Below, one piece after another: positions 17,515-64,000 of a stretch of 64,000 nt of DNA (positions are counted from its first letter, which is position 1; each line of letters starts with the position of its first letter). The notes under the pieces are model-generated. The model was given only the letters and a program-made list of their open reading frames with translations. It made no database searches and was not told where the DNA came from. The position numbers and the translations under genes were made by a program. The DNA is from a virus. The stretch is taken from positions 1-64,000 of IMG/VR virus record IMGVR_UViG_3300045988_113959; one strand, written 5' to 3'.

Positions 17515-17519
17515 TAACA

Positions 17520-22395: not shown

Positions 22396-22418
22396 GATAA
22401 AATAAATTATAAATAATT

Positions 22419-24413: not shown

Positions 24414-24902
24414 TTCAGAGAATTTGACCGTATCCTTAAAGATAAAGTTGCTAACATGCAGCTCATTGATACTAAGTTCATCACTGGTAATGGTCAAGAG
24501 TTAACACTCGGTGGTCAGTTCACAACTTACAAGATGACAAACGGTATCGAATTGACTCTTAAGAAGTGTGCGTTGTTTGACAACATGGAAATGTTCCGTC
24601 AACTACACCCACTGTCAGGCAAACCATTGATGTCTTACACATTCTTGTTCCTCGACCTCGGTATGCGTGATGGTCAGGCTAATATTGTTAAGGTTTGTCG
24701 TAAGGGTCGCGAATTTGTACAATGGTGTACAGGTGGTTCTGTAATCCCAAGTGGTTACGGTTCTTCAAAAGATACTCTACGTTCTAATAGCCGTGATGGT
24801 TATCAGGTTCACTTCTTAGGCGAAGAGGGTATCATGGTTAGAAACCCATTGGCTTGTGGTGTACTTTACTGCGATGCTGATGATTCAGAATATACAGCCT
24901 AA
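24414..24902 (+). CDS. major capsid protein, exon 2 (162 codons)
   Basis: Same codon bias as exon 1 and in phase with it once 990 nt are removed. TAA stop, followed by a strong hairpin. Confidence 0.7.
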   Translation, partial: FREFDRILKDKVANMQLIDTKFITGNGQELTLGGQFTTYKMTNGIELTLKKCALFDNMEMFRQLHPLSGKPLMSYTFLFLDLGMRDGQANIVKVCRKGREFVQWCTGGSVIPSGYGSSKDTLRSNSRDGYQVHFLGEEGIMVRNPLACGVLYCDADDSEYTA

Positions 24903-42166: not shown

Positions 42167-45100
42167 TTAATATGAGATATAAGAGTTTTAATAATGGTAG
42201 TAAAAATAAAACTTCATATACAACTCCTAGTGCAAACGCATGGTTAGCCAGTTTTGAGCAAAATAAAGCCGCTCAAAACCAGGCTTTCTCTGCGCCTTAT
42301 AATAGTGGTATATATAAAGGAGACGCTACTTCCATTTACAATGCTCCCGCTACGTATAGTTATGTGGACAACGGAGCAAGCATAGAGCAAGATTCATGGC
42401 TCGACAAAGCAAAAAGCTTTATTGATAATTTAAATTCATCAACATTAGCTCTTACTGTTGGTATGGCTATTGGTGATGTTGGTTTTAAAAACACAGCGAG
42501 GGCGTTTACACAAAAAATGCTCGAAACTTCATCTAGTGACGATTTAGCTAAAATAGATGATTATCAGCAAGGTCTTAATGATATATAGCTCGTTGAAGAG
42601 TATAGTAAATTTCAAAATGACAAAAGTAAGCTCGAAGCACTTATGAATTACCATATAAAATCTGGTGGTAGTACGAGTGATATAGAATATCAAACACTTA
42701 AAGTTCAATATGATGAAGCTAATAAGCAAATAAAGAGTCTTGATGATTATTTTACAGGAGAAGGTAGAAATCATCAAGTTGTCAGAAAACTTATGTACAA
42801 TCTTGACAATGTATCAACTTCTGATAAAATTAAAGCAAACGCATCTTATATATTTCAAAACTTAGGTGGAAATGATAAATGGTATGATGGTCCGATTCAA
42901 TTATTAAACCTTGGTAAAAACATTCTAAATTACGGAGCTAATTATTTAGGGAAGCTTGGAAATGCTACAGGATTAACTAATAATTCATATTACAATACAG
43001 CTATAACAGAGCAAGCAATCATGAACTCTGATTCATTCTTAAATCTTTACAAGAAAAATCAAAAACAATACGACGTAAAGAAAGCTCAGGAATGGAAGAA
43101 GTATTTTAAAGATATGATTGCAGAAAAAACCGTAGAATATGAACAAGATAAATATGCTGCAAGAACTGGTAATGTAACACTTGGTTAGATGGCTAGTGCT
43201 ATTCCTGTTATAAGTATGTTATATGATGGAAGTGTGAGTAATTCTCTAAACCTAAAAAGAAATGCTTTAAAAAATAAAGATAATTGGGCTAATGGAACTA
43301 TAAAACTTTATAATCCAGAAGATATTCCAGAATCATTTAAACAAGGTGTAGATAAGTTTGGTGAAAACTGGTATGATTTTATTATACATCCCCAATATGC
43401 TGCTGTACAATCTGCATCTAGCGTTGCTATGATGAAACATACTCTTAATGCTCAAGGTGTAGATGCGTTATTAATGTTTGCTGCTAAAAAACTTCCAGTT
43501 ATAGGTTGGGCTGCAACTGGAGCATCTGTTGCTAATAGTATTAATTCTGCGGTTAAACAGCGCGAGCAAGAAACTGGAATGGAAAAGATTCAAGGTCTTG
43601 GTACAAGAGTATTCTCTGAACTTGCCGCTACAGATGAAAGAAATATAAGTAATGTTATATCTGAAATTAAAGATTATGCAAGAAGAAATAATCTTGATAC
43701 AACAGATATGACTCCTCAAGAACTTATAGAGATGGGTGTTGCTTTTAATGTACAAACAGACAACTCAGCATTTGAACAAATTAAAAAAGATGCAAGAAAG
43801 GGTATAAATAAACTTGTTAATGCGAATAACGCATTAGCTTTGATGGATTATGCTCAACAAATGCCATTCTATTCATTCGGTGGTAAAGCTTTAAATAAAT
43901 TTGCTAAAGCTGTTATTAATAGTAGAGCTAATCAAGCTATAGCTAAATTTTTAAGCCCTTCTTTACGAGCAGCATCATCTAAGCTATCACAACCAGTAAT
44001 GGAAGAACTTGTTGGCGTTCAAGATTATTTACCTACATTTAATGGTATCTTTAATGCTGCTACAGATAAAATAGCAAATAGATTTATAAAGAAAGAAGCA
44101 GCTTCTGCAGAGTAGTTTGCAAGCAATATGACAAAAGGTCTTTATACAAAGTCTTTAGGTAATTATTTAAAAAATAAAAGCAAACTTTTACTCGCAGAGG
44201 GTATTTCTGAAGGAATTGAAGAAGGTCAACAGCAGATATTACAAGATAGATACGCAAGAGGACTTTATGACGAATACGGAAAAGATGCTAATATATTAGA
44301 TATAGATGAAGTATTTGGCAATGTAGGTCTCGCTGGCGAATCTGTTCTTGCTTATTTTGGTTTAAGACCATTTGATAAGAACTTGAATACTGATGAGATT
44401 AGGAAGGCTATGAATATAGGTTTTGCTTCATCTATTATACAAAGTGGAGTTCAGCATTCGCTTAAAAATGTATTACCATCTAAGTTTAGAAATGGTGATA
44501 GTTTTAGAGATTTTGTACAACAAGTAAAATCAGACAGAACTGTAACAAGCCTTATAGGTAAACATTTTGAAGACCTTGACGACCAGTCTCATCTTGAATT
44601 ATTTTATAATGCATTTAGAAGCGGAATTACTGATAAACAGCTTATAACATCTATGAATAGACTTAAGGGTTAGCTTGATGAAAGTAATCCCTTTATAAGA
44701 AAGTCTAATATGGATGCTGATATATAGTTAATGCAAAACGCATATAATTTATATAACAATAAAGAAATCAGAAAGACTTTAAACGAAGCTGGTATTGAAA
44801 CTTTTAGTGATAAATATAAAAACTTCGTAATAACTGGAGCTAAGAGAATAACAGACTATCAGATGAGTAATGATGCTGCTAATCAAAATGCAATAGAAGT
44901 TGATAGGCTTAATCATGAAAGAGCTAATATTGTAGATATGCTATTTGAAGGAACTTTGTCAGATGATGAAATAAATAAGATTCAAAGTGAAAATCCTAAG
45001 CTTGCGAAAACAATTAAAAAACTTAGTGATGAATATGAATCTACTAAAGAGTCTATAGATAAGAAGCGTAAAGATGATTTTAATTTATTTACCAAAGAAC

Positions 45101-48100
45101 TAAGTAACTTTGACTCGTTTAAAAACAATAAACATATAAGAGAGTATGTTTCGCAAAATCATGCAAGTGGTAGGCTTGGAAAAGCTGCATTTGATGAAGA
45201 TATAGCAAGTGTGTTTGGAAATGCTTCTTTAAAAAATTCAGCTATAGAATACGCATTTAGACAAGCTCATAAAGAGCAATTTAATAACTTGTCTAAAAAT
45301 TTCAACGATGCTATAAAAAATAAGTTTATAGTTAAAGCTTTACGTTCTAAACTTAATGCCGAAGTAATATATTCTTCTTTAATTGATAGATTTAAAAACG
45401 ATAAAGATTTTTCTGAAGAGATAAGAAGCATTGCTGAGGATTATGCTTTTAACAACAACGTATCTAAAGCTGAATTTATTAAAGAAAGAATAGCCGTATT
45501 AAATTCTCGTAGACAACTTAATAATATAAGAAAGATATTATCATTATCTGAATCAAGGTTGGAATTTCTTAATTTATATCAAATAGAGACTGGTCTTGAT
45601 ATAGATACAAGTAAGCTTGGAACTCTTATATCAGAACTTAAGAGAATGGAGAAAGGTCTTGTTGATGAACAAAATAGAGTTCTTGGGAATAAGAAAGGTA
45701 AAATAAACTATACATATGATGATTTGTTTGAAGACGACATTGAGGAGTATGAAATAGATAATGATAATTCTTATGACTAGGCTGTTACAAGATACTTTAT
45801 AAATAAAGCTTCTTTGAAATCTCAAAAGATATTAGCTCAAATGTATTCTCTTGCTGGTAATAAAGATATATCTATAAATCCAATATCTCTTAATGAAGCT
45901 ATAAATGGTACAAATAGAACTGACGTGTTTAATGAAGAACTCACCCAGTTTGAGAAGATGAATGCTAGGCTTAATTCTAGGAATGAATTAGAATCTGAAC
46001 ATGTTGATGTGTAGGTTACTCGTAAAGATATGAGCGAAGTTTCTAAAAAAGCTCAATTAAAACAGCTTCTTAAAGACCTTGAAGACCAAGAACATAGATA
46101 TAGAATAGCTAATAGGTTATGGAAAAATGCACCAGTTACAGAAGTAGATTTAAATGATGCTACAGACGGTGATGAAGAAGCTTAGGATAAAGTTGATTCA
46201 GCAGTGGATAAAATCATCAATGCTGCAGATAGCGAAAAATCTAATACTACTGAAGGTGAAGTGCCTGCAAGTAGTGAGCTTATAACTCCTGATACGTTAC
46301 ACCAAGAAGACGAGCTTGCTGAAAGATATATGAATAGAAATAAAACTCGTGATGATAGAAAGCGTAAACAAAAAGAAAAAGCTCTGAATGGTAAAAAGGA
46401 TACAGATGATGTTGAAGATAATAATTCTAAAGAAGAACTTAAAGAAAGCCCAAAAGACCCATTAAGCTCTCTTATTAATGGAATGATGGCTGATGATTCT
46501 GATGTTAACGAAGAGGGTGATGGTGGTGAAACCGTTCCAAGTAAAGATACACCAGCTAAAAAATAGCCAGAAAACAAACCAGCCAAATCTACAAGTACTC
46601 GAGATGAAGATGATATTGATAGTATTATAGATAATGGTGATAAAACAGATTCTGAACTTGATTCTAAAACTGAAAAACAGAAAGATGATTATTTAGAAGA
46701 AGAATTTCCAGATGATGCTGATTATGAAGAACCTGAAGAATATATTGAAGATGATTCTGAAACTCAAGAAGCTGCTGTTGAATTAGAGTTAGAAGACGAT
46801 GATGTTCAATAGACTGCGTCTGAAGTTGAAGCTGAGGTATTAAACGATGAAATTGATATTCAAGAAGCTGCGGCAGAAGCCGAGGCTGAATCTTTTGAAT
46901 ATATAGAAGATGCTAGTGATATTGATACAGAAGATTATAGTACAACCGGAAGGGTAAAATACAAAGATAAAGTTCTATCTAAGAAGCAGTCTAAACAATT
47001 AATGGACGAGCTTATAATATTAGGTAGGGCTGAGATTGATGGATTTGACCAAAAAGAACTTCCAGATGGAACTGTGCAAGATGTTGAGATGTATAGAATG
47101 AATGTTACAGATGATACTATAGGTAGTTTTATAAGCAATACATTCTTCTATCAACCAAATCCAGACTTATTTGAAGAAACTGGAGAATATGAATTAATGA
47201 AGCTTACTGTTAATGGTGAGCAAGTTAAGCTAAATAAACCTTTAGCATCTGGCAAGCAATTGTCTGAAAAGCTTTCTCAAGAAGGTTGGTTACAGTCTAC
47301 AAAAAAATACTATATAGTAACTCAATCTCAACAGTCCGAGAAGAATACTATAGGCGACGTTAGAGACTCAATGACCGTATGTCTTATACTTGAAGATGAC
47401 AATAATACATACGCTACTACTCTTAGAGCTCTTGGATTAATGGTTAGTGATATACCTGGAGACCCAAATGGTAAATATACAGTATCTCAATAGAAGAATT
47501 TAATTGACAGATTAATAACAAAAGGTGTTGATTTTTCTAAGATATTAAAGCCAGGGCAAAGATTACCAAATAGTTATAGCAGAAGGGCTAAGTTAGCCAT
47601 AGATGCTATAAACGCAATGGAAATGAAGCTTGCTAAATCTTGGTGGATTAGTCAGGGTAGAAAAGAAAGTGATTTTGAAAACTGGTGGTTACATAAACCA
47701 TTAAAGAAAGATTATCACAAATCTGAATATGAGAATGAATACAAGCAAGATTTAACAACTTGGAGGAATGTACATACTCAATTTAAAATACTTGCAAGAA
47801 AACATTATCAAAAACCTGGTAAGAAAATGCTTACCGAAGAAGCTATAAAAGACCAAATAAATGGTCTTAGAGAGCTTAGAAATAGTATAATTGATAAGTA
47901 TTTAGAAAAAAGAATTATCAAACAAAATGGTAAAGAAGTTGTTGAATATATATTCCCAGAACATGTTAGAGATGATGTAACTCCATCTTATGTTCAACAA
48001 AGTAATGGTGTTATAGATAATGTTAAAGAGAAGAGAGTTGTTGGTAATAATGGTTCAGCTACAATAGATTAGATACAAACTCAAATAAACGACGGAAGTA

Positions 48101-51100
48101 TTCTTCTTGGATATGGTAAAGGTGCATTAGCAGAGACTTCTGAACAATTTGCAATATATGGTTTATTATCAAAAGATTCTGGAAAGATTTATGATGGTAA
48201 AGGGTTGTCTGGTAAGCTATATTGGCTTGTTAAAGGATTATCTGGAACAGATGCACTTGTACCAATAATGCTACATGAGGAAAGATTCGATACTCAGGAT
48301 TTTATAGATAAGGAAGGACATAGAAAAACTAAGTTCATAGGTTCTAAAGATGATGTTAAACTCACTCTATCATATGACGCTATACAAGGAAAACTCATAA
48401 ATACAAGTAATGGTAAAATTATTCCATCTACTGCTGAGATTTTGATGTATATGCTATGCGGAAGATTTAATTTTGGAACTAATAATAGGACTGAAATTGA
48501 TAATATTGTAGAGTTCTTTATACATAGCGGTGAGAAAACACTATTGAGAAATCAACCAAAAACTGGCGGAGACCCTATGAACTTCTTAGCAAGAAAGCAA
48601 TTATTCTTTGGAGATGTTGATAATAGTGGTATAAATAAGTTACATATAGGTATAGGCGACCCTCTCAACGGTTATCAAGAAAAGATATATACCGAAGATG
48701 AAATATTTGAAGATTCAGAACAAGGAGAAGCTAATAGAAGAGAAATAGTTCATGCTATAGCGACTCAAATGCACTGGAATACTGATATAGATTTTATAAA
48801 CTCATCTATAAAAGTTGGAGATTCTACATCATTAATTGGTAGATTTATACAAAATATGATTAGTGAGTATTTCTCCGGTAAAGGTTTAACTCCAGAACAG
48901 CAGCTTGAAAAAACTATAGATATTCTTGATAATAAACAACTATCATTTAAGGTTAGTGATTTCTTTGAACTTAAGAATGGTAAATTTGCACCAAAGTCAA
49001 ACGTTAGTGTGTTAGCTTGGCTTCTTTCTAATAAAAAAGTAAGTACAGATGTATCTAAAAAGATATTTAAAGACCCATTCGTATTTGCTGGTGGTGTTAA
49101 TTCAGAAGCTCCAGCTCCGTCTAATGGAAAACCGCAATCAACTTCAAAAGTTGAACTTGTTGGTAGTAATAATGATGTTGTTAGTACTGGTTTTAGTGTA
49201 ATAAATCCCGATTTATTCAATAAGGCTAATGAAGCTGCTGGTAGTAAAGTAGAAGATGGTAGTAAAGTGGTAGAGCTTCGTAAAAACATGGGATTCAAAT
49301 CTCCTAAAACACAAGAAGAAAGAGAAGCTTACAGAAAACAACTTGAAGAGGCTCATATAAGTGCTAATAAGAATGGAGGTTTGCAAGATGCTATATATGT
49401 AACAGACCCATATTTAAATACAGACTTTAATAAGTTTAATGTAGGTAATATGGATAAGCTTATAGACCATCTAAACTCTCTTGTAAAAGACTTCTTGGAT
49501 AAGTATAATAAAGAATACGGAACTTCATATAAAATTGAAGACATTGGCGGTATAACAAAAAACACAGCTCTTACAACTATAAATAATATTAGAAATAACA
49601 ACGGTTACCTTAGATTGGATTTGTTTAAAAACGGTAAGGGTAAACTTCAGTTTACAACAAGTACAATGAAAACTTGGAGCCAACCAGTAACTGGTGTATA
49701 TTCTAAACATAAATCAAATGGTAAGTTTGATAAAGATAAGGCTGTTAAGTGGCTTGAAAAACATCTAGGTATAAACAGATATAATATTATAGTTAGAAAC
49801 GGCGTAATGAGAAGTACCGATAACGAATAGGTATTTGGTGTTACGCAGGTGTCTTTAGATAGAATAGCTGGCGAGCTTACAGGTCTTATACAACTTTCAA
49901 CAAATGGTGGTGAAGGTGTTACATATCACGAGGCTTGGCACTATGTAAACTTGTTGCTTAATGATGCTAACACACGTTCTAAAATATGGGATTCATACGT
50001 TAAGACTCATAAAGAACTTAATAGAGATGGCGTAACAAATCTTATGATAGAAGAAGCTCTTGCCGATGAGTTTATGAACTATATAGTTATGCAGCAAGAT
50101 AATTCTCTACCAGGAATGGTTAAGAAGTTGTTTAATAACATACTTGACTTTGTTGTAACATCTCGTAGAAAGTCTGCGTATAGAGCTTTATTTAGATCTA
50201 TAAAAAGAGGTGAGTTTGGTAATACCGAACACCTTGATAAACAATCAGCTAAAGAGTTTGCTGAAAAGTATAAATATGGTGTAAACAAAATAGATTATTC
50301 AGTTCCTGGATTTTCTAATAAGGATTTAAATAATCTTAAGTATATAGATAATCATACAGATTTATTTGCTGTATTAGACGCCGTTGTTAGAAAAGTTATA
50401 TCTGACTTTAATATAGACTCTATAGATAAGATTAAATAGATTTCTGGTGCGTACGATAAGAATCAACAGCTTGATTTTAGTATGCTTCTTGACAAGGTTC
50501 AAGATATGGCTGACGAAGCTGATTCAGAACAAATGTCATCAATGCTTCAAGATATACATGATAACCCAGAATTTTTAAAGCGTAAGCTTGTAGAAACTTT
50601 TGCTGATTTTGGAATAAATGTTAAGATTAGAAGAGAAGAGGATGTTGATGAAGCTGAAGATGCAGAAGAAAGAAATGATTTTGAGTTTGATAAGTTTGAT
50701 TTATCTATAAGTAAAAAAGACAATGCGGCTTTAAGAGTTAAGATGTTTATGTATTCAATACCTAAATACACAAGAGTTTTTAATGAAGATGGTTCAGTAG
50801 ATATACAGATGGTACAAGATGGCTTTGGCTCGTCTTTATTCTGGGATTTCAACGAAGCTTGGACAAAGATTCTTAAAGATTTATGGCAAGCCTCATCTCT
50901 TGACGATGTATATACTGAAGACGTTGTTAAAGATGGAGTTGTTAAATATAATAAGGGTGAATATAAATACAATTCTATATACGGAATGGTTTCTCGTAGA
51001 GCAGAATCGGATGTGTTTTATTACGCACTCAAAGAAAAACTTAACCAATTACTTGCTAATAAAAATCCAGATGTTTAGCTTAGAAGCCAATTGTTTGCTA

Positions 51101-54100
51101 CCATAAATTCAAGCAAACCAAATGTATCTTATATAAAAATATCAGACCCAAAAGATTGGAATAATAACGATGACGAATTTATTGATGATACAGATATAGA
51201 TTCAAGTTTATATCAATTCTCATTAATATCTGATAAACTTAGAGAGTGGAGAATAAATGATGATTCACTTGTATCAACTGAAAGAAATATTGCAAGACAG
51301 TGGTCTAAGAATCTATTTACAAACGGTTTGACAAAGATTGATGGTAATAATGGTATAGTTGTTAGCGATTCTTTTGTTAGTAGCAGGCAAAGAGAACTTG
51401 ATAAAGTTATAAGAAAACTATCTAAACTTCTTGTTAAAAAGAATAAAAGATATATATCAGGCGAATCAACGGTACTATCTAAACTTAATAATACTGGTGA
51501 AGAATCTGCAATAAAGAATGATATTGTTAAATTCTTAAACTCTATAGGCATAGATGCTGATAGACAGTCTATAGATATTTATATATCTATGAACTCCGAT
51601 AATGAGAATGTATCTGGATACGAACAAGCCAAAATACTTCATAGACTTCTTAGTAGCACAGATAAAGCTAAAGGAGGTATAAGTGGTATTATAAATGAAA
51701 CATTATCATCTTCTGTGGGTGAAAATATAATTCAAGCTGATAGTGTTAATGGTTTTGAAAAACAGTTAGATCAAGTATATAACAACTATAACAAAGATTC
51801 ATTTATAGCACAACTTGCTGTATCTTGGGACGCTGTACATCCAGACCCATCAGACTTCTCTGTAAAAGGACCAAGTGGAGAAATGTATTATCCTATAGGA
51901 TAGAATAACTATATATCAAGTAGGGTTAGAAATCTAAACGATGCACAGTCTGAAACTTCTAAAAATCTTAGAAGAGACCCTTATTCAAGACACTCTTTAT
52001 TGCTTGATGCTGCTGACAATGTTAACGAAGATGATTCTAAAACACAGCTTAGGATAAATGCATTTGTCGGTCTTAAAGATGGTGATAGATTAAAAGGTAG
52101 TGATTATTTTGGAATAACAGCTATGGAAGATTATCTTTCAAAGATGTACATGACAGAGAACGACCATCTTATATTACCAACTATGGCTGATAAGAAAACT
52201 TGGTACTCTATAACATCACCAAATCTAAAATTAAGACATGATGTTGTAATATCAGAAATACCAAATAAACTTATTAGAAGTGCTGCTGTTGATGTTTATA
52301 CTGAGAATTTTAAAACTATAAAGAAATTTAAGAGTGATAATAGTATTGTCGAAGTACCAATTAATGAGTTAGATGATTACGAATTAAAGTCTTATGTAAT
52401 GGATTGGTATAGAAGTCTCCCATCTAATAGTTATAATAGAGAAGATATTGAAAGCAGAGCTATTAACCAAATGTATAATGGTTCTAATTTTAATGGCTTT
52501 AGTGTAGATATAAATGGAAATATTATTCCTAAATATTCTAATGATACATTAAATATACTTGCTGGTTATTTTATAGATGAACTAGATGCTCTTATACAGT
52601 ACTATTCTGAAGATAATATAAAATATCTTACTGAAAATCCAAATAAACTTCAAGAAAATTTCCATGGTGTTATAAAGGATGGTAGAATGGACTTTTCTGG
52701 TAATGGTGGTAAATTTAGGTATTTTTACGATATAGTGCCAGAATATATAAATGGGTACAATGTAGAACATAATCTAAACCTAAACCAAATTCTACAGGCA
52801 ATATTTGAAGCTCAGAAAAAGCTTGAAACACCTGGATTTAAGGTTACAGAAGATGACAATTCAGTTATGAATGGTTATAATGTATCACAATTAAGAGCTT
52901 TGCGTTCAGATAAGTCTGAATTAGATGGATTTGAACTTGTTAGAGATTATTTAAAAAAGTTGAGAGAATATGCTGTAGAAGAGGAGAATCTTGGCATTAA
53001 TAAATATTCAAAGGATATTTTAAATAGTGTAAACAACTTTATATATAGAGGTGTTACTAATGAGCTTGAGCTGTTATCTGAGAACGGACCATTGCAAATG
53101 GTAAAGAAAGATAAAAATGGCAGATTTGTACCTACAAATATACCGCAACAATTCTTTAATCCTTATGTTGAAGCTTTATCTAAGACTAAATTATTCTCAG
53201 GCAACGATTTATACGATAACTATTATATTCAAAATAGTGCACTCGTATCTCTTATAAGTAATCATTTTGTAAATAGTATAATTTCAACTGTAGAATTTGA
53301 AAAAGTATTCTCTGGAGACCCTGCTCAATATAAGAATAAAGGTAACAAGAAAGCTCCTTTTGTTAGTACAACATTATCTATTTCTAATGAAAATAATAAC
53401 ATTAGCATCGATGTTGACGTTGACAACCTAGATGATATGCACTCTGATAAAATCAAACGTCTTGGAAGTACATTATCTCCAGGAGAAGAGATTAGAACTC
53501 AGTATAATAAAGATGAAATAGAAAAGCTAAACATACCAAGTCATTCTAAATACACAACACTTGATGTTGAAGATATTAAAACACCATCATTATTCTACGA
53601 CGAAGTAAAACAAAAATTCTTAACTTAGCTTGTTGTAGATTATGTTAGAACTGGTGTTATAAAAGAACAATTTGATAACTTTATATCACATATAGCTGGC
53701 ATTCTTTATAAGAAAGCTAAAGATAGGTCTAATGGCGAAAACATAAAGCCAAAAAGAGTTTCTAAATCACAGGCTATAGATTTATTATATTCTGACAAAA
53801 CTTACTTTGATATTTTATATAATAGTATTCCTAAAGATATAAAAGAAAGGATAGAATCTCAACTTGACCAATAGATGGACCCATATAAGAAAATAAATGT
53901 ATGTGATGCTCAGGTTATAATAAGACCAGATTTGTATAGAAGAGTTAGAATTGGTCTCGGACAGTGGTCTGTAGTTCCAGATGAAACTGGATATTCTGAT
54001 GAAGATGCGTTTAATATAATCGAAAACGGATATTATATAAACGAAGATGGTGAACGTGTAAACATTGGAGAGCAAGATTGGGCTAAAGATAAAAATCTCG

Positions 54101-57100
54101 CATCAAAGATTCAAAAGTTACAGCTATTCCCATTAAAGATGTCTTATTTTGATAATTATTCTCACAAGGAGGGTGATAATTTTAGAAATAGAACATTACT
54201 TAATAAGATGGCTATATTTCCATTGTTTAAATTTAACATGTCTACAAACACGGGTTCTAAACTATATCTAAGAATGAATAGATATGGTGATTGGATAGAT
54301 ATGATTACTTTTAAATCAGCTGTTAAGGTTGGTGCTGTTCAAAAAGGATTACAGTTAATATCTAATGATTCTAATGTTGAAGATGGCGTTTCTAAACTAT
54401 CTTCTTTAGTTGATAGAGATAGTGATACTGCTATAGATTATAAGACCGGAATTGTTATTAATAAAGGTTCTGAAAATTCACTTTCTGTAAAAGTTCAAAG
54501 TTTAGATAATCTTAGAATGCAGTTAAATACAAAAGCTCACGAAACAGACGAACGTATGATTGGTAAGCAGATGTTTAAGCTGGCATTCTCAAACTTAGTT
54601 GATGATGAGAAGTATGGTCATGGTGATAAAAGAAGAACTGGAAAGTCTATTAGAAAGGATATTATGACCACAATTAATCTACTTACATAGTTTGGTGTAA
54701 TATCTGTAAAAGATGAGTTTTTTAACGAAGATGGAGATGTTGATAATTCTTCTGTATCAAGTTTTGTTTAGAGAGTTTGTAGTAGCAATGGTTTAGGCGC
54801 ATCTGCTTTACAAATACTTAGTAAAGGTGGAACTATATCAAGCTTAATGTCAAGAAGAGTATTTGAGAATAGTGTATCTAAGTTTATAAATAAACTTGTT
54901 GTAGATATAAACTCAAAAGGTGGTACTGCTATTCAGCAATCTGTACTTGGATTCTCTGCATTTAAGAAAGGTGATAATTTACTTGGACTTGAACAAGCTA
55001 AAGGTAGAATACCAAAATCAATACAATTGAATAATGGAAACGAATTAAAGTGGAAGACTAATAAAAACTACACCCAAGTGATATTAAGCGAAAACTTCTT
55101 TAGGGATATAGTTCCAGCTAATATTCAACAAATGGGATATGAAGCTATAAGAGCTTGGTTGTTTGAAAAGAATATAATTGGAGAAAATGCAAATCCACTT
55201 GGTGTTGGCTATCGTATTCCTACACAGGGTCAATCGTCAATGTTTGCGCCACAAGTTGTTGATATTCTTCCAAAACAGTCTGGAGATGTTATAATAGTAC
55301 CAAGAGAGTTTACTGGTCAGACTGGTTCCGACTTCGACGTTGATAAGATATTCTTAGCTCTTAAATACTTTAACAAATCAGGTTCTGAACACGATATAGA
55401 TTATGATTTAATAGAGTCTATTTATAATGGCGAATCTAGTAATATGTAGGTCGCTGTTAAAATTATATCTAAAATGTCTGGAAGAAGTGAAGAGGATGTC
55501 GCTAAAGCTATAGAAAGTCAAGACGATGAGTCTATTAATTCTATTGTTGATGATTTAGATATAGAAAAAGCTGTAAAAAATCACCTTATAAATACTTATA
55601 TAGACATTCTTACAGATGATAAAAACTTCTCACTTGCAAGAGGTTCTATTGACGTTGTAACAAATATATTGCAAGACTAGCTTGTTAAGAAGTATCTAAA
55701 AAATACATCTAATGGCTATTCTGTTGGAGGTTATCAACTTAGTCCGTATTTCCAAACTATGAGAAAACTTGAGTTTAGTTCTGGTAAGCAAGGTATTGGA
55801 CCATTTGCTCTTAATGTTACAAACTTATCTCTTACACAGTACACTAGATTAACATTTGACTATGGTGAAAATCCATATGAGTTTGGAAGTCTTGATGCTA
55901 TATATGGAGAAGATGGAATGCGTATTGCTGACTGGCTATCTGCAATGGTTAATGCTAATGTGGACGTTGCTAAAGACCCATATGTGTTTGCTTTAAATGT
56001 AAACCAAGCTACATATAGTCATACTAACTTCTTAATTAGAGCTGGAAAGGGTCTTGGTGTATTTACATTCCTAACACAACCATCTATAAAAGAGTTTGCT
56101 AATATAAAAAACAACTCTGGTAATGTATATGGTTTTAACTTAGAAGGTGATAAGAGTGAAGGTGATTATACTGGCAAGTATGAAAAGAGTATATATAATC
56201 AAATATACTACGGTATTATAAAACAACTTAAAGAGTGTTTATTAGCTGTTGACGATAAGGATTCTCAAAAGTAGATTAGGAGTTTTATAAACTATGTAGA
56301 TTCTTTAATTATAGACAAAAATCACAAAGATATCACACCAGAGGAAAGAAAGTCTATAAAAAGACCATTTTCTAAGAAGTAGATGTTTGATGTTGAACTT
56401 GGAAAGAAATCGTTAGAATTTAGTAATAGTAAACCAGGAGTTAACAAAGCTTCATCGCTTGCGTTCCAAGCTTGTGCACTAAACTCATTTAAAGATGTTG
56501 GTGTTTATGCTAAAAAATTATCAGATTTAGTTAAAGTATCTCAGATTGATACTAAGAAGTTTGGTAATTCTATAGCTCAGCAAATAAACTTTTCAAATCG
56601 TATAGATGTATTTAAAACAACAGATGGATTTACAATAAACAGAAAAGATTTTAAATCTTGGGTTTAGCAGCTCGCTAAAGAAAGAGAGGCTAAGACTGGG
56701 TAGAAAGTATCTTTAGGGAGATTTGAATCTACCGTAGCTATAAATGAATATTTTAAGAACACATTCTTAGGTAGTAAATTTAAAGAGTCTAAAAAGCTAA
56801 CAAGATTATTACTTAAGAATCAATCGTTTACAGCAACAAGACTATTTGATAATATATTCAGAAACATAATGGGTTAGACATTAGGCTTTAAAGATGCAGA
56901 TGAAAATACTGTTAGTTACAAACCTACTTCAAAAGATGAGGTTGTAAACACAATATCTGATTCTATTGATAATGTCTTAAGGTTCTTATCGTTATTTGGC
57001 GTTGGTTCAAGAATTATTAAATCTGCATCATTTAAAGAAAGAAATCCAGACGCTATAGACTTTACAATGGGTGGTGATATAAATCTTGTTAAAGATAAAA

Positions 57101-59199
57101 TTAAAACTATATTGTTTGGTAATAAAGAAGTTGATAATATCTTTTTAAGATTTAACAAACTTAAGAGTGATATGCAAGCTAATCCTTAGAATTACCCAGG
57201 TCTTATAGACCCAGTTACACTTGGTGTTCAGAATGAGCTTTTGAATTATCTAAATCCAATATCAGCTAATGAAAAATCACCTGTTGGTAGATTTGTGTTA
57301 TCTACAAATCAAATGAAAGTTAATCAAAGTAAGAAATAGATTTTATCAAGCGCATTTAGTCAACTGTTATCATATCAAGATGAAAATGTTAGACAACTTG
57401 CTGAAGATTTAGCTTTCTATGCATATTATTCTTCTTATGACCAGAATAGAGTTGACGCATTCTTTGATTTAGTTCCTGTTGAATACAGAGCTCAATATGA
57501 TAAAGCTCTTATGTTTGCTCTACACGATATGAATCGTAGTGAAAATAAACTTGTAAATACAAACAATGATTTATTAAGTTTATATAACTATGATGTTAAT
57601 AATATTGAAGCTGATAGAGCAGAAAATATAATCGATATTATATCAAGAAACTATTGGTACGATGATAATATAGTTAAAACTCACTATATAAAAGAAGATG
57701 AAAGTGTTTTTTTATTAGGAGGAGGTTATGATGTTCTTGGAGAGCCAGTAATTGTTCAAAATGAAGATAATAAGGTTTATCCTAACTTTATAGTTACTAG
57801 CAATTCTGATAGCTCTTATATTAAAATTAAGAGTGGAAAGAATTATATGTTGTATAAAAATATAGGTTCTGTTATTAAATATAGAGATGGTAATATCGTT
57901 GGTATTCAATATGTTTACGCTGCTACAAACAAGGCTGGAATAAAACAAGGTCAAGCAAATATTCTTGAGATGTATGGGTCTTTTGGTGTTGGTTCCATAT
58001 TTGAAAATAATAAACTTGATGAAGAGTTCTCTCATGATAAAGTTGTATCTGATGTAGAAAAGCTTGTAAAAGATAGTAATGAGGCTAATAGCGGTTATGG
58101 TTTTGAATTATCATGGTATAAGCCTGTAATAAAACAATCTACATCATAGTATAAAGATAACTTTATTCAGACTCAAATTGCTAATCCCGAACGTGTTATA
58201 AAAGTTGGTCCAGTTAAGTTAAAGGCTGGTCAAAAAGCTCCAGATAGAGTTGGTATAAACAAAGCTGATGTAGTTATAAATATAGTAAATGATTCTGTTA
58301 AAGAATCAGATTATTATAATACAATAAAGAGTGAAGATGCTAAATAGAAAACCGTTACTGTTAATATGAGTGAAAACCCGTCTAAGTTTATAAATAAGAT
58401 TTTAACCTTAATAAATAAGGATAATGCTATTATACACTTTACAACTCCAATATTTGATTATATATTAGAAAGAGGAGTTAGTGATGATAGAATCAGTAAA
58501 TATATTGAGAGTGAAATTGAAAGACTTGAGAATGTTTTTGATACACAAGATGTGAAAGAAAAAGAAGTGCTTCTTAAACAAAATAGAGAGATGCTTGAAA
58601 GCTTTAAAGCTCGTAGAGTTTTAGCTTTGCAAGACCTACATTCTTTTATTAGAGAAATATTAAACCAACTGTCTATCAATGACGTTAATATAAATAGAAT
58701 ATCAACATCTTCTACTAAAAAAGGAAACTCTAAAAGATATGCTTTAGCAAAATCTGTAGCCGTATTGTCTAATTATATGCAATATACGTTCTCTGGTAAG
58801 AATATAATATACTGTAATAATAATCTTACATCTGATAATAAAGCATTTAGAAATTATATAAAAGAACTTCAGTATGAGGTTGACGATAGTGAAAATTTAT
58901 TAGAAGATGCAGCTATAAATGAGTATATTGATATAAATCAAACATTAGCTAAAGATGTAATGAACTATGACGACAAATCATCTAATATAGTAGAAAGGAC
59001 ATTAAAAGAAAATACTGGCGAAGATTCTAAAACTTAGACAGAAAGTAAAACAGATGATGACGCTAGCAATAATATATCTAGTTTTGATTCGCTAAGTATA
59101 CTTTCTAATGCTATAGACTATAGCTCTGATGATTTCTTGGACGAAGTTTAGGAAGATTTAGAGAATGATTTAGAAGATAATAATCACGAAAAATGTTAA
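42163..59199 (+). CDS. giant virion protein (5678 codons, about 33 TAG) containing a two-barrel RNA polymerase module and an HExxH motif
   Basis: Frame 1 has no TAA or TGA from ATG 42163 to TAA TAA at 59197-59202, joining 21 track ORFs. GYRIPTQGQSS (55210-) and GSDFDVD (DxDxD at 55330-55344) are spaced as in the beta-prime NRAPTLH...NADFDGD motif. HEAWH is at 49927-49941. Confidence 0.8.
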
Positions 59200-59205
59200 T
59201 AATAT

Positions 59206-62200
59206 ATGTTTTGTCCATATTATAAAAATAAAGAAGTGTTTGATGGCTTTAATAGTATGATTCAAGCATTTGGTGGACAACCTATGACGGAAGATGAATT
59301 TAAGTCGGCTAATCTAAGAAATTAGAGAGTCGGCTTAGATTTATATGCTATGGAAGCAGCTTATAGGTTGTATGATAAAAACGGAGGATTGTTTTTAGAT
59401 AAAGTTCCAAACAGTCAATCTAAAGAGAATCCAAACGGTATAGATTCCAGATTATTCTCTGATATTCTTGCTAAGAATAATGGTGATTATCTTAAGTCTA
59501 TAAAAGAAAAAGCTCAATATTATTCTAAAAGGTATATTAATACGTACGGAGATTGGCTTTCAAATAAACCAAATAAAGATTCTTATTTAGATATCAATCA
59601 CGAACCAATAATGAATAATGAAAGAGCTTCGATTGCTCTATTTAGTGCTAATTAGACTTTTGGTGATGGTATTGGTAGGCATGACCCAGTAACAAGGTTA
59701 TTTGCAGGAGAAGTTGTGAGTTCTACATATTTGTTACAATATTTCCTAGATACTAATACGTTTTCTTTAAAGAATAAAATATTAGCCAAAGTTTTATCTA
59801 AGCACGATATTCCAGTAAGGATTAATAATAGTATAAATGCAGACGCTGACAGTGTAATTGTTAAAGGTTATAGATATATACAGTTTAACGGTAATGTATT
59901 AAGAAATTATTCAAATAGATATGTAGCGAATACATTAATACACGAGATTGTGCATCAATTAACAACTGGTGCATTACGTAATCCACAAACTAAAGAAGAA
60001 AAGGATTTATAGAGAAATGTGAAAAAGTTTTATAACTATATAAACAAACACTTTAAAGAGTTTTCTTCTATATTTAGCGACGTGGATGGTGCATTGTACG
60101 CTATGGAAGATGAGTTTGAATTTGTTGCAGAATTAGCATCAGATGAATATACTAGAGAGCAAGTTTATAAAGTAGCAAAATTAATAGACAATAATAAAAA
60201 TATTGTTATACGAACACTTAATAATATAATAAACGCAATATCAAAAATACTTGTTGGTAGAAGTGTAGTAGGTAGTGTTAAAGAGTTTGATAAGCTTAGT
60301 AAGTAGGTTGAAGATTTTTTAATGTCAAGAAATGTAATTGTTAATAAAGAACCTTCAAATTAGGAAGTTATAAATTATTATGATGATATAATGAAAAATG
60401 CATCTGATTATGATATGGCTGGTGAAAACATTATTCATCTTAATAAAGCTGTAGACTATATAGATAGACATTATAAAAAATCATCTAACAATAGTGATAC
60501 TTATTATCAAAATATACAAAATTCACTATCTGTTAGACTTAATGCAATTAGAACATCAAGTTTAGACGCATCGAAGAAAGCTAATCTAATCAACTCAACA
60601 CAATCTTAGATAGACTTGTTTACAATATCAACTATATCTCAATATGATGCCATTACATCGTTTTTGAGACAGGTTGTACCACAATTAATACAAGATAAAC
60701 AAGAAATCTTCGATATTTATTACAAGCATAAAAGTTTTACATCTAATGATTATATGTTTCAAATGCATAGCAATATAAAAATGTATGACTCAATCGTTGA
60801 ACAACTTCAACTCATGCTTAGTGAAGATGGTAACATTCAACAAATTGTAGACTTATATAACAAGGGAAAAATTGACAAAGATAAAATATCAGTAGATGAT
60901 TTACTAAATGTTAAACAAGATGTTGATAATTTGTCATCAGTAACTACAGCTGCTAAGGCTGTATTAGACCACATGTTAGATTCTATAAGCTACGATAAAA
61001 TGAAGGATGTATCAGAATCTGTTGGTGCGAGAGAAGGTGTTAAATATGCAGACTCTTTTGTAATGCATGAGATTATCAATGATGATATAAGTGTTAGACA
61101 GTTGTATGCTGGAGCGTCAGATTCATCAACAAATGAGGCTATTAGAGCAATATCTCATATGGTAAATAAAGCTATAGAGAATGCTGATAATGACGCAATA
61201 CCAGTTGGTTTAGCTATGCTTAATGCTGTTAAGAATCTTAAGCGTGGTGAGTCTCAATTATAGTTATATGAGTTAGATGAAAATGGTCAAACTACAGGTT
61301 ATCTTGTAAGAAATTTAAATTATGGTAAATTCTGGAAAAATTACGATAATGCATTGAAAGATATAAATAGAGCCGTTACTAAAAAATTTAGTAAAGATGG
61401 TCTTATATTAAAAGATGATAATAGATTTCCACCAGATTAGAATGATGATGCAAGAATTATGTGGAATAATATGAGAAATAAATGGCTTGCAGAAAATTCT
61501 CATAGAAAATATACTCCAGAGTATTATAAAATATAGTCAGAGGTTCCATATTCTGCAAGAAAAGCATTAGACCAATATGATTCTCAAATACAGTCGTTAT
61601 TATCTAAACAGGGTGTTATAGATGAGAATGGTATAAAACATTTCGATAAGCTAACAGATGAAGAATGGGACCGTTTAAAGTCAGCTTGGAGAGACAAAGC
61701 AATGCTGTATGAGGATTATACTATATTTGGTGTTTTAAAGACCGGAGAAGAGCTTAAAATAGCTCGCTCACTACAAGACTTCAGAAAGAAATTAAACGAC
61801 TATAGAGAGAAGAAAACAGGTAAGAAATTCGACCCTGTTTATGACCAAAAAGGTTGGCAAAAACAATTTGATAAGATAGTTGAAGAATGTGGCGGTAAAA
61901 AAGCGTTCAACAAGTGGATGCAAGATGGTTACAGTTCTAAGTTTGACGATTAGAAATTCCTTAAGTGGGCAAGAAGAAACGCAAGACTTCAGTTTAAGAA
62001 AGATGAAGATGGTAATGCAATAGTATTTGAGAAAATAAAAGAAGCTATGCGTGGAATTTCAATTGACTTTGGAAAAGAATACGATGAGCTTAAAGAAAAG
62101 AGACAAGCATTACTTAGACCGCATAAAGACCAATATGGTGAAATTGATGGTAATAATATACCAGAATCAGTAAGGAATATATTAATGGATATAAAATCTT

Positions 62201-64000
62201 AGATGCGAGATATTCGCAATAAAGTTTTATCTGAAAATCAACAAATATCAAAACTATATTATAAGTATTCTGAGCTTATGGACGAATATATAACCAGAGA
62301 GAATACAGAATACTATAATGATGTAGAAAGGTCTATAGATGATATGCTTCTTGAAGATGAAATAGACGACCCTGGTGTAAGATATGCAATGCTTCTTGAC
62401 TATGGCTATGACCCAGATGATACTGGAGAGTTTATACAACCAGATGACTGGTGGGTTAAAACTGTAGCTACAGATAAACTTGAGTATATGGAGTTTACAC
62501 CTGGAAAAGGTTGGATGTTACAACAAGACGAATCTGTATTCCTTGACAAAGAGTATGAAAAACTATCTAAGGAAGAAGGAAATAATAGTTCGTTTATACC
62601 GAAAAAGAGTCTGTATGATAACTCCCGCGCGTTTGAAAAGATAAAAAACTCTGAGGGTTTATATAATTTATATAATCTAACATTAGAGTATATGAAAAAA
62701 TCAAACGAAATGTAGACTAATAGAATGTTTACAGATGATTATCTTTTACCACAGATGCAAGGTTCTTTATGGAAGAGATTAAAAAGAAGTAGAACTAAAT
62801 GGGCTACATTTATTGAATGGTTTAAAGAATAGATTGGTATATCTCAAAGTATTGATGATAGTATCCAATACGGAGAGTCTTCTGCATTGGATGAGAATAG
62901 TAATGAGTATGGTAATAAAGAAGTATCAAATATTGGTAAATACCCAGATGGTCGTAGATTTAATATACTACCACAGTATTACACAAGAAAGCTATAGGAC
63001 CCGTCACAATTGTCATCTGATTTAGTTAAAATGATAACAACTTATTATAACATGTCTTCATTATATAAATATAAATCTGAAATTAAAGACGATGTTGAAA
63101 GCTTAATAGATGCTATAGGTAAATAGAAGTTTGCTCAAGATTATGCACAATTTTCTACTAAAAAAACAACTGTAGATGGAATAAACTCAAAGACATTTGA
63201 ATTTATTAATAAGTGGGTTGAAATGAATCTGTATGATAAAGCAAGACTCAAATTTAATTTCAATAAATGGGGTTTAAATATAAACTTTGATAAGACTTTA
63301 CAATTATCAAGGAGATATATCACAGCTAGAAACTTAGGACTTAATCCAAAAGTTGCTGTAGTTGGATTCTTAACAACTATGTATAACCATATAGCTTACA
63401 CACTAACTGGTCAAAGATATAGCGCTAAAGAAACTTTAGCTTCTATGCTCGATATAGCTTCAAGAACACTATTCAAACATTTACTTGGAGCTAGAACTAT
63501 AGGTAATCCATATACTAAAGATAAAATGCTTGTCATAATGAGTAATTTTGGTATGGCTAATCAGTGGGATAACACTATAAGTCATACGAATAGAAATAGG
63601 TTTATACAATCTGCATTTAAACAGTCTATATATGGATTTATGTCTACCACCGATATATTAACTAAACAATAGATAGCGCAATCAACTCTTAGAGCTCACC
63701 ATTATGTAGATGGAGAATTTTTAACAAAGTATGACATAAGAATGCGTCGTGTTAAAAATGGCGAAGATTGGTTTAATAACGCTATGAAGCAATATAATAA
63801 AAATAAATCTTTATGGGATTTAATTGACACTTCAACAGGTTAGATAAAAATAACTGGCGATAATCAAGATTATAAAGCTGCTTATAAAAAGAGTGAATTT
63901 AAAATTAAAAATAGATGTGTTAAATATGCAGAAGAAGCCGACGGTATGGCTACACCATTACAAAGAGCTTTACTTGTACGTAGTTGGGCTGGTGTTCTTG
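59206..64000 (+). CDS. second giant virion protein, 5' part (at least 1598 codons, about 17 TAG), with HExxH motif
   Basis: ATG lies 4 nt after the TAA TAA. Frame 1 is open to the window end, joining track ORFs 59350 to 63223. LIHEIVHQL is at 59941-59955. Confidence 0.75.

What the first reader, a model, noticed from the sequence alone, without database searches (positions are those of the whole stretch)
55210..55344. Two-barrel RNA polymerase catalytic signature inside the giant ORF
GYRIPTQGQSSMFAPQVVDILPKQSGDVIIVPREFTGQTGSDFDVDKIF reproduces the order and spacing of the universal beta-prime double-psi beta-barrel motif NRAPTLH...(about 30 aa)...NADFDGD. The Arg-to-first-Asp distance is 39 residues here versus 35 in E. 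coli beta-prime. This is the hallmark of the virion-packaged, QDE-1/YonO-like RNAPs described for crAss-like phages. It implies that this phage injects its own polymerase for early transcription.
Basis: partly seen in the sequence, partly recalled or inferred. Interest (0 to 1): 0.65.

Follow-up and report, generated by a model that had tools for sequence, protein, structure and literature searches.

The report
crAss-like phage virion RNA polymerase motif
The flagged stretch is the catalytic aspartate motif of the giant virion RNA polymerase that marks crAss-like gut phages, so it is a correct call on a well-described enzyme in a moderately divergent new phage.

Summary
Confirmed and ordinary. 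Window 55210-55344 (+) encodes YRIPTQGQSS...TGSDFDVD. It lies in one 5,678-codon frame (42163-59199) that is broken only by 33 TAG codons, which are read through, most likely as Gln.

- **Homology.** The region matches one solved structure, the phi14:2 gp66 virion RNA polymerase (6VR4). The single sequence gives E=7e-23, a 15-sequence profile 3e-163, and a family HMM 1.6e-219 over gp66 residues 97-2105.
- **Motif.** DFDVD aligns to the mutationally proven DFDID 1361-1365 of gp66. The Asp triad and the upstream Y-R-x-P are invariant or nearly so in more than 100 homologues.
- **Landmarks.** gp66's connector, bridge helix and trigger loop all map onto the ORF.
- **Structure.** An AlphaFold model of a 30%-identical homologue spanning both barrels matches 6VR4 (Foldseek E=1e-36, TM 0.62).
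- **Context.** The genome is a Suoliviridae ("delta") crAss-like phage. It has TAG recoding of late genes, an intein in the terminase and an intron-like split of the capsid gene. The nearest deposited genome, cr273_1, has the same 5,794-aa gene.

Giant DxDxD polymerases, their fusion into polyproteins and virion delivery are already published. Packaging and early transcription are inferred for this phage, not shown. Novelty: a new member of a known kind. Interest is low.

The parts
42163..59199 (+). Giant ORF of 5,678 aa, containing 33 in-frame TAG codons that are read through and ending in TAA TAA. It is colinear over almost its whole length with 4,000-6,400-aa proteins of crAss-like phages.
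   Evidence: Only TAG breaks the frame. ORF list with TAG=Q. Colinear with P0008 (5,639 aa), P0010 and others, and with cr273_1 gp35 (5,794 aa) over residues 103-5390.
50320..58014 (+). gp66-like RNA polymerase module (giant aa 2720-5284, aligned to phi14:2 gp66 residues 96-2109).
   Evidence: The family HMM hits gp66 residues 97-2105 with E=1.6e-219. Residue mapping by hmmalign gives 19% identity over 1,783 matched columns.
50605..50727 (+). Segment aligned to the gp66 cleft-blocking domain (gp66 196-233; giant aa 2815-2855). It is acidic and poorly conserved, so this assignment is the weakest.
   Evidence: Mapping. The domain is defined in the paper.
53251..54504 (+). Region before the connector that aligns to gp66 ~859-1094 and should hold the first (beta-like) barrel. 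It contains FSGDPAQYKN, DKIKRLG, INVCDAQVIIRP, NKMAIFPLFK and FKSAVKVG. Invariant residues are K3765, R3766, D3915, K4015 and K4055 (gp66 K893, R894, D962, K1027, K1065).
   Evidence: Alignments. Invariance in 107 proteins and in gp66. The AF2 model of homologue P0075 is strand-rich there, with pLDDT 80-94. Barrel boundaries are inferred, not measured.
54505..54930 (+). Connector equivalent (giant aa 4115-4256, 142 residues; gp66 1095-1238).
   Evidence: It is helical in the P0075 model.
55207..55353 (+). The finding itself: the beta'-like barrel motif GYRIPTQGQSS...GD.I..P.EFT..TGSDFDVDKIF (giant aa 4349-4397).
55330..55344 (+). Catalytic Asp triad DFDVD (D4390, D4392, D4394), aligned to gp66 D1361, D1363, D1365.
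55741..55833 (+). Bridge-helix equivalent (giant aa 4527-4557; gp66 1529-1559), containing the conserved GKxGIGPFALN.
55921..56037 (+). Trigger-loop equivalent (giant aa 4587-4625; gp66 1598-1636), containing the conserved NAxVDxAKDPY.
49927..49941 (+). HEAWH (giant aa 2589-2593), followed by IEEALADEF. It is a zincin-like HExxH...E motif about 130 residues before the polymerase module.
   Evidence: HExxH is present at this place in 104 of 107 proteins. 'YHEAxHxV...EExLA' appears in the family consensus.
59206..64000 (+). Next ORF (over 1,598 aa, runs off the window). It is an orthologue of cr273_1 gp36 and, weakly, of the phi14:2 zincin-like virion protein. It carries HEIVH at nt 59941-59955.
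   Evidence: BLASTP gives E=0 to cr273_1 gp36 and E=3e-6 to phi14:2 GenBank gp076 around the HExxH.

Best explanation
The motif is the magnesium-binding active site of a single-chain, two-barrel DNA-dependent RNA polymerase of the crAss-like phage type (the phi14:2 gp66 family).

In this phage the polymerase module (aa ~2720-5284) is the C-terminal half of a 5,678-aa late protein. The N-terminal ~2,700 residues have no recognisable fold apart from a zincin-like HExxH motif. The gene is translated late, with TAG decoded as an amino acid, most likely Gln.

By analogy with phi14:2 and crAss001, the product is packaged in the capsid, probably in a self-inhibited and possibly proteolytically processed form. 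It is ejected with the DNA and transcribes the early genes independently of the host polymerase. D4390, D4392 and D4394 would hold the catalytic Mg2+. The Y-R-x-P-T-Q strand and the invariant Lys/Arg residues before the connector would line the active site, and the bridge-helix and trigger-loop equivalents would drive nucleotide addition.

Shown here: homology, motif conservation, domain mapping, TAG read-through and genomic context. Inferred: catalysis, packaging, ejection, early-gene specificity and processing.
For: - **PDB, by sequence.** 6VR4 (gp66) is the only match, with E=7e-23 and, with a 15-sequence profile, 3e-163 over gp66 826-1779.
- **Family HMM.** It covers gp66 residues 97-2105 with E=1.6e-219.
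- **Landmarks.** DFDVD aligns to DFDID 1361-1365. The connector, bridge helix and trigger loop all map.
- **Conservation.** The triad and YRxP are invariant or nearly so.
- **Structure.** The AF2 model of homologue P0075 (aligned to giant aa 3686-4666, pLDDT 74.9, pTM 0.72) matches 6VR4 with Foldseek E=1e-36 and TM 0.62 over 1,011 columns. In BFVD, every match whose source is named is from a crAss-like or other uncultured phage.
- **Abundance.** 3,109 cluster representatives match at E<=1e-3, and most of the top hits are 4,000-6,400 aa long.
- **Taxonomy.** All 101 matching phage records listed or tallied are crAss-like phages or unclassified uncultured phage records.
- **Context.** The upstream genes are terminase, portal, capsid and virion structural proteins on the same strand. 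The gene order matches cr273_1 gp33-gp36.
- **Recoding.** Read-through is confined to late genes. Homologues are enriched 2.65-fold for Gln at the TAG columns.
- **Literature.** gp66 is a virion-packaged, rifampicin-resistant enzyme that transcribes early genes, and each Asp is essential. Fusions into one huge polyprotein are known. Giant vRNAPs of up to ~6,000 aa are called a hallmark of the group.
Against: - Nothing in the window shows packaging, ejection or activity.
- The window's own sequence could not be modelled, because the TAG codons made the structure tool refuse it. The 225-aa stop-free piece folded alone gave pLDDT 33. The structural evidence is therefore from a homologue only 30% identical.
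- No suppressor tRNA lies in the window.
- Pfam and PHROGs have no model that recognises the protein.
- Identity to gp66 is only about 19-25%.
- The fourth motif position is Val, not the Gly of cellular polymerases. gp66 likewise has Ile there.
Confidence: 0.9

Rival explanations
1. The DxDxD string is a chance match inside a very large structural, non-enzymatic virion protein. This is how the nearest RefSeq genome annotates it ('virion structural protein').
For: Six DxDxD strings occur in the ORF by chance alone. Deposited homologues carry labels such as 'virion structural protein', 'nuclear pore complex protein-like', 'DNA helicase' and 'hypothetical protein'. Pfam and PHROGs are silent.
Against: Only this DxDxD aligns to the proven catalytic DFDID of gp66, inside alignments with E of 7e-23 to 1.6e-219 that extend over about 2,000 residues. 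The triad is invariant across more than 100 homologues. The odd labels are automatic annotations of the same gene family.
Confidence: 0.01
2. The gene is a decaying pseudogene or a set of separate short genes. On this reading the 33 TAG codons are real stops, and no full-length polymerase is made.
For: Under the standard code the frame breaks into ORFs of at most 542 aa. No suppressor tRNA lies in the window.
Against: - Over 17 kb not one TAA or TGA occurs in frame, while the other two frames are full of them.
- TAG never ends an ORF in the window, and it is also in frame within terminase, portal and tail genes.
- Homologues show Gln enrichment at the TAG columns, with a residue spectrum like that at true CAA/CAG codons.
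- All catalytic and structural motifs are intact.
- TAG-to-Gln recoding of late genes is published for this very phage group.
Confidence: 0.03
3. It is a genuine two-barrel polymerase, but it acts inside the cell after synthesis, as the PhiKZ or AR9 non-virion polymerases do, or as an RNA-dependent polymerase like QDE-1. On this reading it is not an injected early-gene transcriptase.
For: The weak Foldseek tail includes AR9 and PhiKZ non-virion polymerases and plant RDR2 (E 0.15-0.2). According to the paper, gp66 is structurally closest to QDE-1. Nothing in the window tests packaging.
Against: The gene sits at the end of the late structural block on the same strand and shares the late-gene TAG recoding. 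A protein made only late cannot serve early transcription unless it is carried in the virion. The orthologues in phi14:2 and other crAss-like phages are virion components, and gp66 uses DNA templates.
Confidence: 0.05

Closest known systems
Cellulophaga phage phi14:2 gp66 (GenBank gp077), virion-packaged DNA-dependent RNA polymerase, PDB 6VR4
   Same: It is homologous over gp66 residues ~96-2109. It has the same DFDxD triad, the same YRIP strand, and the same connector, bridge-helix and trigger-loop blocks. The invariant residues K893, R894, D962, K1027 and K1065 are shared. It sits in the same position, after the tail genes and before a zincin-like protein.
   Different: Identity is about 19-25%. 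Here the polymerase is fused behind about 2,700 extra N-terminal residues that have no detectable relative in phi14:2 (no HMM hit to the upstream phi14:2 protein). Those residues carry an HExxH motif that gp66 and its upstream neighbour lack. The gene here needs TAG read-through.
crAssphage cr273_1 (NC_055904, Suoliviridae, Oafivirinae, Buhlduvirus) gp35, annotated 'virion structural protein'
   Same: The architecture is the same: a 5,794-aa protein colinear with residues 103-5390 of this ORF. It has the same HExxH at residue 2587, the same following gene (gp36) and the same preceding genes (gp33, gp34), and it also has in-frame TAG codons.
   Different: Identity is only 26-34% over the whole protein and 47.5% in the catalytic core. 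The window therefore represents a different, undeposited lineage. The closest metagenome fragment, P0001, is 87% identical over 650 aa.
Neurospora QDE-1 and plant RDR2 (eukaryotic single-chain two-barrel RNA polymerases), and cellular beta/beta'
   Same: According to the gp66 structure paper, the fold logic is shared: two double-psi beta-barrels, a DxDxD motif on the second barrel, a bridge helix and a trigger loop.
   Different: No significant direct similarity could be shown here. There was no PDB sequence hit apart from 6VR4. Foldseek E was at least 0.15, and hhalign probability was 6%. The two barrels lie on one chain, unlike in cellular enzymes, and the fourth motif residue is Val rather than Gly.
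Coliphage N4 virion RNA polymerase, and the tape-measure-fused virion RNA polymerase of Thermus phage P23-45
   Same: The strategy is the same: a giant polymerase is carried in the virion and ejected to transcribe early genes. In P23-45 it is also a two-barrel enzyme fused to another virion protein (abstracts listed; comparison with N4).
   Different: As I recall, N4 vRNAP belongs to the unrelated T7-like single-subunit family. No similarity to it was found in the PDB searches. The P23-45 enzyme is N-terminal in a tape-measure protein, whereas here the polymerase is C-terminal in a podovirus cargo protein.

Membership tests
crAss-like phage virion RNA polymerase (phi14:2 gp66 family) | Significant sequence homology to gp66 across the catalytic core | tested here: met
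   phmmer E=7e-23. Profile E=3e-163 over gp66 826-1779. Family HMM E=1.6e-219 over gp66 97-2105.
crAss-like phage virion RNA polymerase (phi14:2 gp66 family) | DFDxD motif with all three aspartates, aligned to gp66 1361-1365 | tested here: met
   DFDVD at aa 4390-4394 aligns to DFDID. It is conserved in 107/107, 98/99 and 90/90 proteins.
crAss-like phage virion RNA polymerase (phi14:2 gp66 family) | Two double-psi beta-barrels on one chain, joined by a connector of about 140 residues | tested here: met
   Met by homology. The alignment spans gp66 826-1779, and the connector maps to a 142-residue segment. The AF2 model of a 30%-identical homologue covering the same span matches 6VR4 over 1,011 columns (E=1e-36, TM 0.62). 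The window's own sequence could not be modelled, and barrel topology was not inspected in coordinates.
crAss-like phage virion RNA polymerase (phi14:2 gp66 family) | Bridge-helix and trigger-loop elements after the catalytic barrel | tested here: met
   They map to aa 4527-4557 and 4587-4625, with the conserved GKxGIG and VDxAKDPY blocks shared with gp66.
crAss-like phage virion RNA polymerase (phi14:2 gp66 family) | Lies in a Crassvirales genome, at the end of the structural block, next to a zincin-like virion protein | tested here: met
   Terminase, portal, capsid and virion protein genes lie upstream. Synteny with cr273_1 gp33-gp36. The downstream ORF matches the phi14:2 zincin-like protein. 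All 101 matching phage records listed or tallied are crAss-like phages or unclassified uncultured phage records.
crAss-like phage virion RNA polymerase (phi14:2 gp66 family) | The protein is present in the virion and is delivered into the host | not testable with these tools
   This is known for phi14:2 from MS/MS (annotation; paper). Here it is only inferred from the gene's late-gene position.
crAss-like phage virion RNA polymerase (phi14:2 gp66 family) | Mg2+-dependent, rifampicin-resistant DNA-templated RNA synthesis and transcription of early genes | not testable with these tools
   Shown for gp66 only.
Two-barrel RNA polymerase superfamily (cellular beta', QDE-1/RDR, YonO) | Direct, significant similarity of the catalytic barrel to beta' (NRAPTLH...NADFDGD), to QDE-1/RDR or to YonO | tested here: inconclusive
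DFDxD, but with pairwise E=0.006 and probability 6%. Foldseek gives AR9 and PhiKZ nvRNAP, ZmRDR2 and Thermus beta' at E 0.15-4. The profile search of the PDB finds none of them. YonO was not tested. The link rests on the published gp66 structure.
T7-like single-subunit virion RNA polymerase (phage N4 type) | Sequence or fold similarity to the N4 or T7 polymerase | tested here: not met
   No such hit appears in the PDB sequence searches or in Foldseek against the PDB.

The most novel reading that the evidence does not exclude
In this lineage the polymerase is flanked by two zincin-like HExxH...E modules. One lies in cis about 130 residues before the polymerase module (HEAWH, kept in 104 of 107 proteins, absent from phi14:2 gp66 and its upstream neighbour). 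The other lies in the next gene. The cis module could be a built-in maturation protease. It would cut the 5,678-aa precursor and remove or release the cleft-blocking segment, switching the packaged enzyme on after ejection. That would be a self-activating polymerase polyprotein.
Probability: 0.2. Interest if true: 0.45.

Novelty: new member of a known kind. Interest (0 to 1): 0.15.

Why it matters
It adds little to biology. The giant DxDxD polymerase, its virion delivery, its fusion into polyproteins and the TAG recoding of late genes are all published for crAss-like phages.

The practical value is in annotation:
- The gene is invisible to Pfam and PHROGs.
- It is fragmented by standard-code gene callers.
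- It is mislabelled in deposited genomes as 'virion structural protein', 'DNA helicase' or 'nuclear pore complex protein-like'.

A residue-level map of this gene onto the 6VR4 landmarks may help annotate the many 4,000-6,400-aa metagenomic homologues. The conserved cis HExxH module just before the polymerase is a small, testable lead on how the packaged enzyme is processed or activated.

Tried and rejected
- **PHROGs and Pfam.** Scans of the whole giant protein in six chunks gave no PHROGs family and only sub-threshold Pfam noise. These libraries simply lack a model.
- **Single-sequence AlphaFold.** The 225-aa stop-free piece (54772-55446) folded alone gave pLDDT 33, which is useless.
- **Oversized alignments.** A 57-sequence alignment exceeded the aligner's limit, and the 45-sequence alignment A1 was too large for the structure tool. 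The 30-row alignment A2 with homologue P0075 as first row was used instead.
- **Word-index search.** The homologue search found only 7 proteins. The exhaustive HMMER search was needed.
- **A phmmer run** of the full giant against the fetched proteins timed out and was replaced by BLASTP.
- **N-terminal 2,800 aa against the PDB.** Nothing was found; the best E was 0.38.
- **Rfam on the whole window.** Only tRNA-Met was found, with no group I intron and no suppressor tRNA.
- **Promoter search.** I considered looking for a polymerase-specific early promoter motif. I dropped it because the phi14:2 study found no common motif upstream of gp66-dependent transcripts.
- I first equated the paper's gp65 with the upstream phi14:2 gene. 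Record coordinates show that the paper's g065, g066 and g067 are GenBank gp076, gp077 and gp078. The zincin-like gp65 is therefore the gene transcribed after the polymerase, matching the window's next ORF.
Full report
**1. The observation**

Window 55210-55344 on the + strand translates to YRIPTQGQSSMFAPQVVDILPKQSGDVIIVPREFTGQTGSDFDVD. The opposite strand has a stop. Under the standard bacterial code the surrounding frame is chopped into ORFs of at most 542 aa.

Every in-frame stop between 42148 and 59196 is TAG, and the frame ends in TAA TAA. Reading TAG as sense gives one ORF from ATG 42163 to 59199, 5,678 aa long. The motif occupies residues 4349-4397, with DFDVD at 4390-4394.

**2. TAG is read through**

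- TAG is in frame in nearly all + strand genes from 9176 onward, at 0.25-3.1 per 100 codons. These include terminase, portal and tail genes.
- TAG is absent from the first + strand genes (6163-9114). Among the eight - strand genes (34-5588) only one, 4663-5172, contains a single in-frame TAG.
- TAG never terminates an ORF in the window.
- At the 27 TAG positions that fall in aligned columns, homologues have Gln 2.65 times more often than background. The residue spectrum (Q, E, K, N, D) resembles that at genuine CAA/CAG codons.
- No suppressor tRNA lies in the window; the only tRNA is tRNA-Met at 7196-7268.
- TAG-to-Gln recoding of late genes is published for the beta, delta and zeta crAss-like groups, including cases with no detectable suppressor (PMC7886860; PMC10136315).

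**3. What the motif is**

A phmmer search of residues 2801-5678 against all PDB sequences finds one protein, 6VR4 chain A. This is the virion-packaged DNA-dependent RNA polymerase gp66 of Cellulophaga phage phi14:2 (E=7e-23). GYRIPTQGQSS...TGSDFDVDK lies on GYRIPNQGQSS...TGSDFDIDK.

- A 15-sequence profile raises the match to E=3e-163 over gp66 826-1779.
- A family HMM built from 45 homologues covers gp66 residues 97-2105 with E=1.6e-219.
- In gp66, DFDID 1361-1365 is the catalytic motif. Alanine substitution of any one aspartate abolishes RNA synthesis (bioRxiv 10.1101/2020.03.07.982082).

Mapping through the HMM places the gp66 landmarks on the giant protein as follows:

| gp66 landmark | Giant aa |
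|---|---|
| Whole polymerase module | 2720-5284 |
| Cleft-blocking segment | 2815-2855 |
| Connector | 4115-4256 |
| Asp triad | 4390-4394 |
| Bridge helix | 4527-4557 |
| Trigger loop | 4587-4625 |

**4. Conservation**

An exhaustive HMMER search with the stop-free piece 54772-55446 finds 3,109 cluster representatives at E<=1e-3 and 316 at E<=1e-10. Most of the best hits are 4,000-6,400 aa long, with the motif at about residue 3,000-4,800.

- In 153 matched stretches, Y, R and P of YRIP are invariant. The three Asp are present in 151/152, 138/142 and 128/131.
- Among 107 proteins (106 homologues over 3,000 aa plus the window's own), the three Asp are present in 107/107, 98/99 and 90/90.
- Before the connector, K3765, R3766, D3915, K4015 and K4055 are invariant in all 107 and identical in gp66 (K893, R894, D962, K1027, K1065).
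Their position in the fold was not checked in coordinates.

**5. Structure**

The 225-aa stop-free piece folded alone gave pLDDT 33.

I therefore modelled P0075, a 1,050-aa homologue that aligns to giant aa 3686-4666 at 30% identity, using the 30-row alignment A2. The model has mean pLDDT 74.9 and pTM 0.72. Two strand-rich regions are separated by a helical stretch.

- Foldseek against the PDB gives 6VR4 at E=1e-36, TM 0.62, over 1,011 columns.
- All other hits have E>=0.15, although many are two-barrel enzymes: AR9 and PhiKZ non-virion polymerases, maize RDR2, Thermus beta', Pol I and II, and PolD.
- In BFVD, every match whose source is named is from a crAss-like or other uncultured phage, and many carry odd names such as 'DNA helicase'.
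YRIPT lies on NRAPT, there is a 4-residue gap, and DFDVD lies on DFDGD. The statistics are weak (pairwise E=0.006, probability 6%).

The superfamily link therefore rests on the published gp66 crystal structure. That structure has two double-psi barrels, a connector of about 140 residues, a bridge helix and a trigger loop, and is closest to QDE-1.

**6. Context and identity of the phage**

Upstream on the same strand lie these genes:
- Terminase large subunit (14347-17514, with an intein-like insert).
- Portal (17484-20000).
- Major capsid protein, split.
- A virion structural protein (33217-37899).

DNA similarity to deposited phages is patchy, at 60-80%. A tblastn search of the catalytic core hits 101 records. 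Those listed or tallied are crAss-like phages or unclassified uncultured phage records. The best is cr273_1 at 47.5% identity.

cr273_1 belongs to Crassvirales, Suoliviridae, Oafivirinae, Buhlduvirus. It has a 5,794-aa 'virion structural protein' followed by a 2,043-aa protein. Both are colinear with the window's giant ORF and the next ORF, and the two preceding genes match as well.

The whole 5,678-aa architecture is shared with dozens of metagenomic proteins. The closest fragment found is 87% identical over 650 aa.

The delta (Suoliviridae) group is described as having TAG recoding, a terminase intein and group I introns in the capsid gene. The review calls polymerase genes of up to ~6,000 aa a hallmark of the order. 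The gp66 paper notes that in some phages the polymerase and its two neighbours are fused into one huge polyprotein that is probably cleaved.

**7. Mechanism**

- **Shown.** This is a gp66-family polymerase module with every conserved catalytic element intact. It is encoded as the C-terminal half of a late, TAG-recoded giant protein in a crAss-like genome.
- **Inferred from phi14:2 and crAss001**. The protein is packaged as capsid cargo, possibly self-inhibited by the cleft-blocking segment. It is ejected with the DNA and transcribes early genes without the host polymerase, while the host enzyme transcribes middle and late genes.
- **Unknown.** Whether the precursor is cut, and by what.

**8. 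A side lead**

A zincin-like HExxH...E motif (HEAWH at aa 2589, then IEEALADEF) sits about 130 residues before the polymerase module. It is kept in 104 of 107 proteins.

The next ORF carries HEIVH in a region that matches the zincin-like virion protein of phi14:2 (the paper's gp65, GenBank gp076). The two HExxH regions align weakly with each other (hhalign E=0.006). phi14:2 gp66 and its upstream neighbour have no HExxH.

A cis-acting maturation protease is therefore possible but untested.

**9. Verdict**

The feature is a new, moderately divergent member of a well-described family, and interest is low. The main practical point is that standard gene callers and domain libraries miss or mislabel this gene.

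Noticed in passing
window 9176-64000 (+) versus 34-9114: In-frame TAG codons occur only in the late (+ strand) genes from 9176 onward. They are absent from the first + strand genes and from all but one - strand gene (4663-5172, one TAG). No ORF in the window ends in TAG, and no suppressor tRNA is present; the only tRNA is tRNA-Met at 7196-7268. At the giant ORF's TAG columns, homologues are enriched 2.65-fold for Gln.
   Followed up: yes
window 22413-24902 (+): The major capsid protein gene is split. 22413-23426 matches positions 3-334 of PHROG 11589 and 24411-24902 matches positions 336-492. The ~985-nt insert between them holds an HNH endonuclease ORF (23519-24322, itself with 3 TAG codons). 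It looks like a self-splicing intron with a homing endonuclease, as reported for delta-group crAss-like phages. Rfam finds no group I intron at the gathering threshold.
   Followed up: partly
window 14347-17514 (+): The terminase large subunit (1,053 aa) carries an insert of about 285 residues (aa ~471-756). The insert starts with Cys, ends in ...THN followed by Cys, and matches a PHROG profile annotated as anaerobic ribonucleoside reductase large subunit. I read this as an intein, in line with published delta-group terminase inteins.
   Followed up: partly
window 49927-49941 and 59941-59955 (+): Two zincin-like HExxH motifs flank the polymerase module. HEAWH lies in the giant ORF and is kept in 104 of 107 proteins. 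HEIVH lies in the next ORF, which matches the phi14:2 zincin-like virion protein. The two regions align weakly with each other (hhalign E=0.006). phi14:2 gp66 and its upstream neighbour lack any HExxH.
   Followed up: partly
homologues P0017, P0028, P0034, P0040, P0042 (relative to giant aa ~4339, window nt ~55180): Several giant homologues carry an extra 90-115 residues immediately before the GYRIP strand of the catalytic barrel. The window's protein lacks this insertion. Whether it is a mini-intein or another insertion was not examined.
   Followed up: no
window 42163-50320 (+), giant aa 1-2720: The N-terminal ~2,700 residues have no hit in Pfam, PHROGs or the PDB and no detectable relative in phi14:2. 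They include a long acidic low-complexity stretch (aa ~1380-1620). They are nevertheless colinear with other giant crAss-like proteins at 22-30% identity.
   Followed up: partly
L001 (NC_055904.1 cr273_1), locus 3446-26980: The RefSeq CDSs of cr273_1 gp33-gp36 contain 5-36 stops when translated with table 11, so this deposited genome also relies on stop-codon read-through. Its polymerase gene is labelled only 'virion structural protein'. Homologues in other records are labelled 'DNA helicase', 'nuclear pore complex protein-like protein', 'exonuclease V' or 'DprA-like'.
   Followed up: partly
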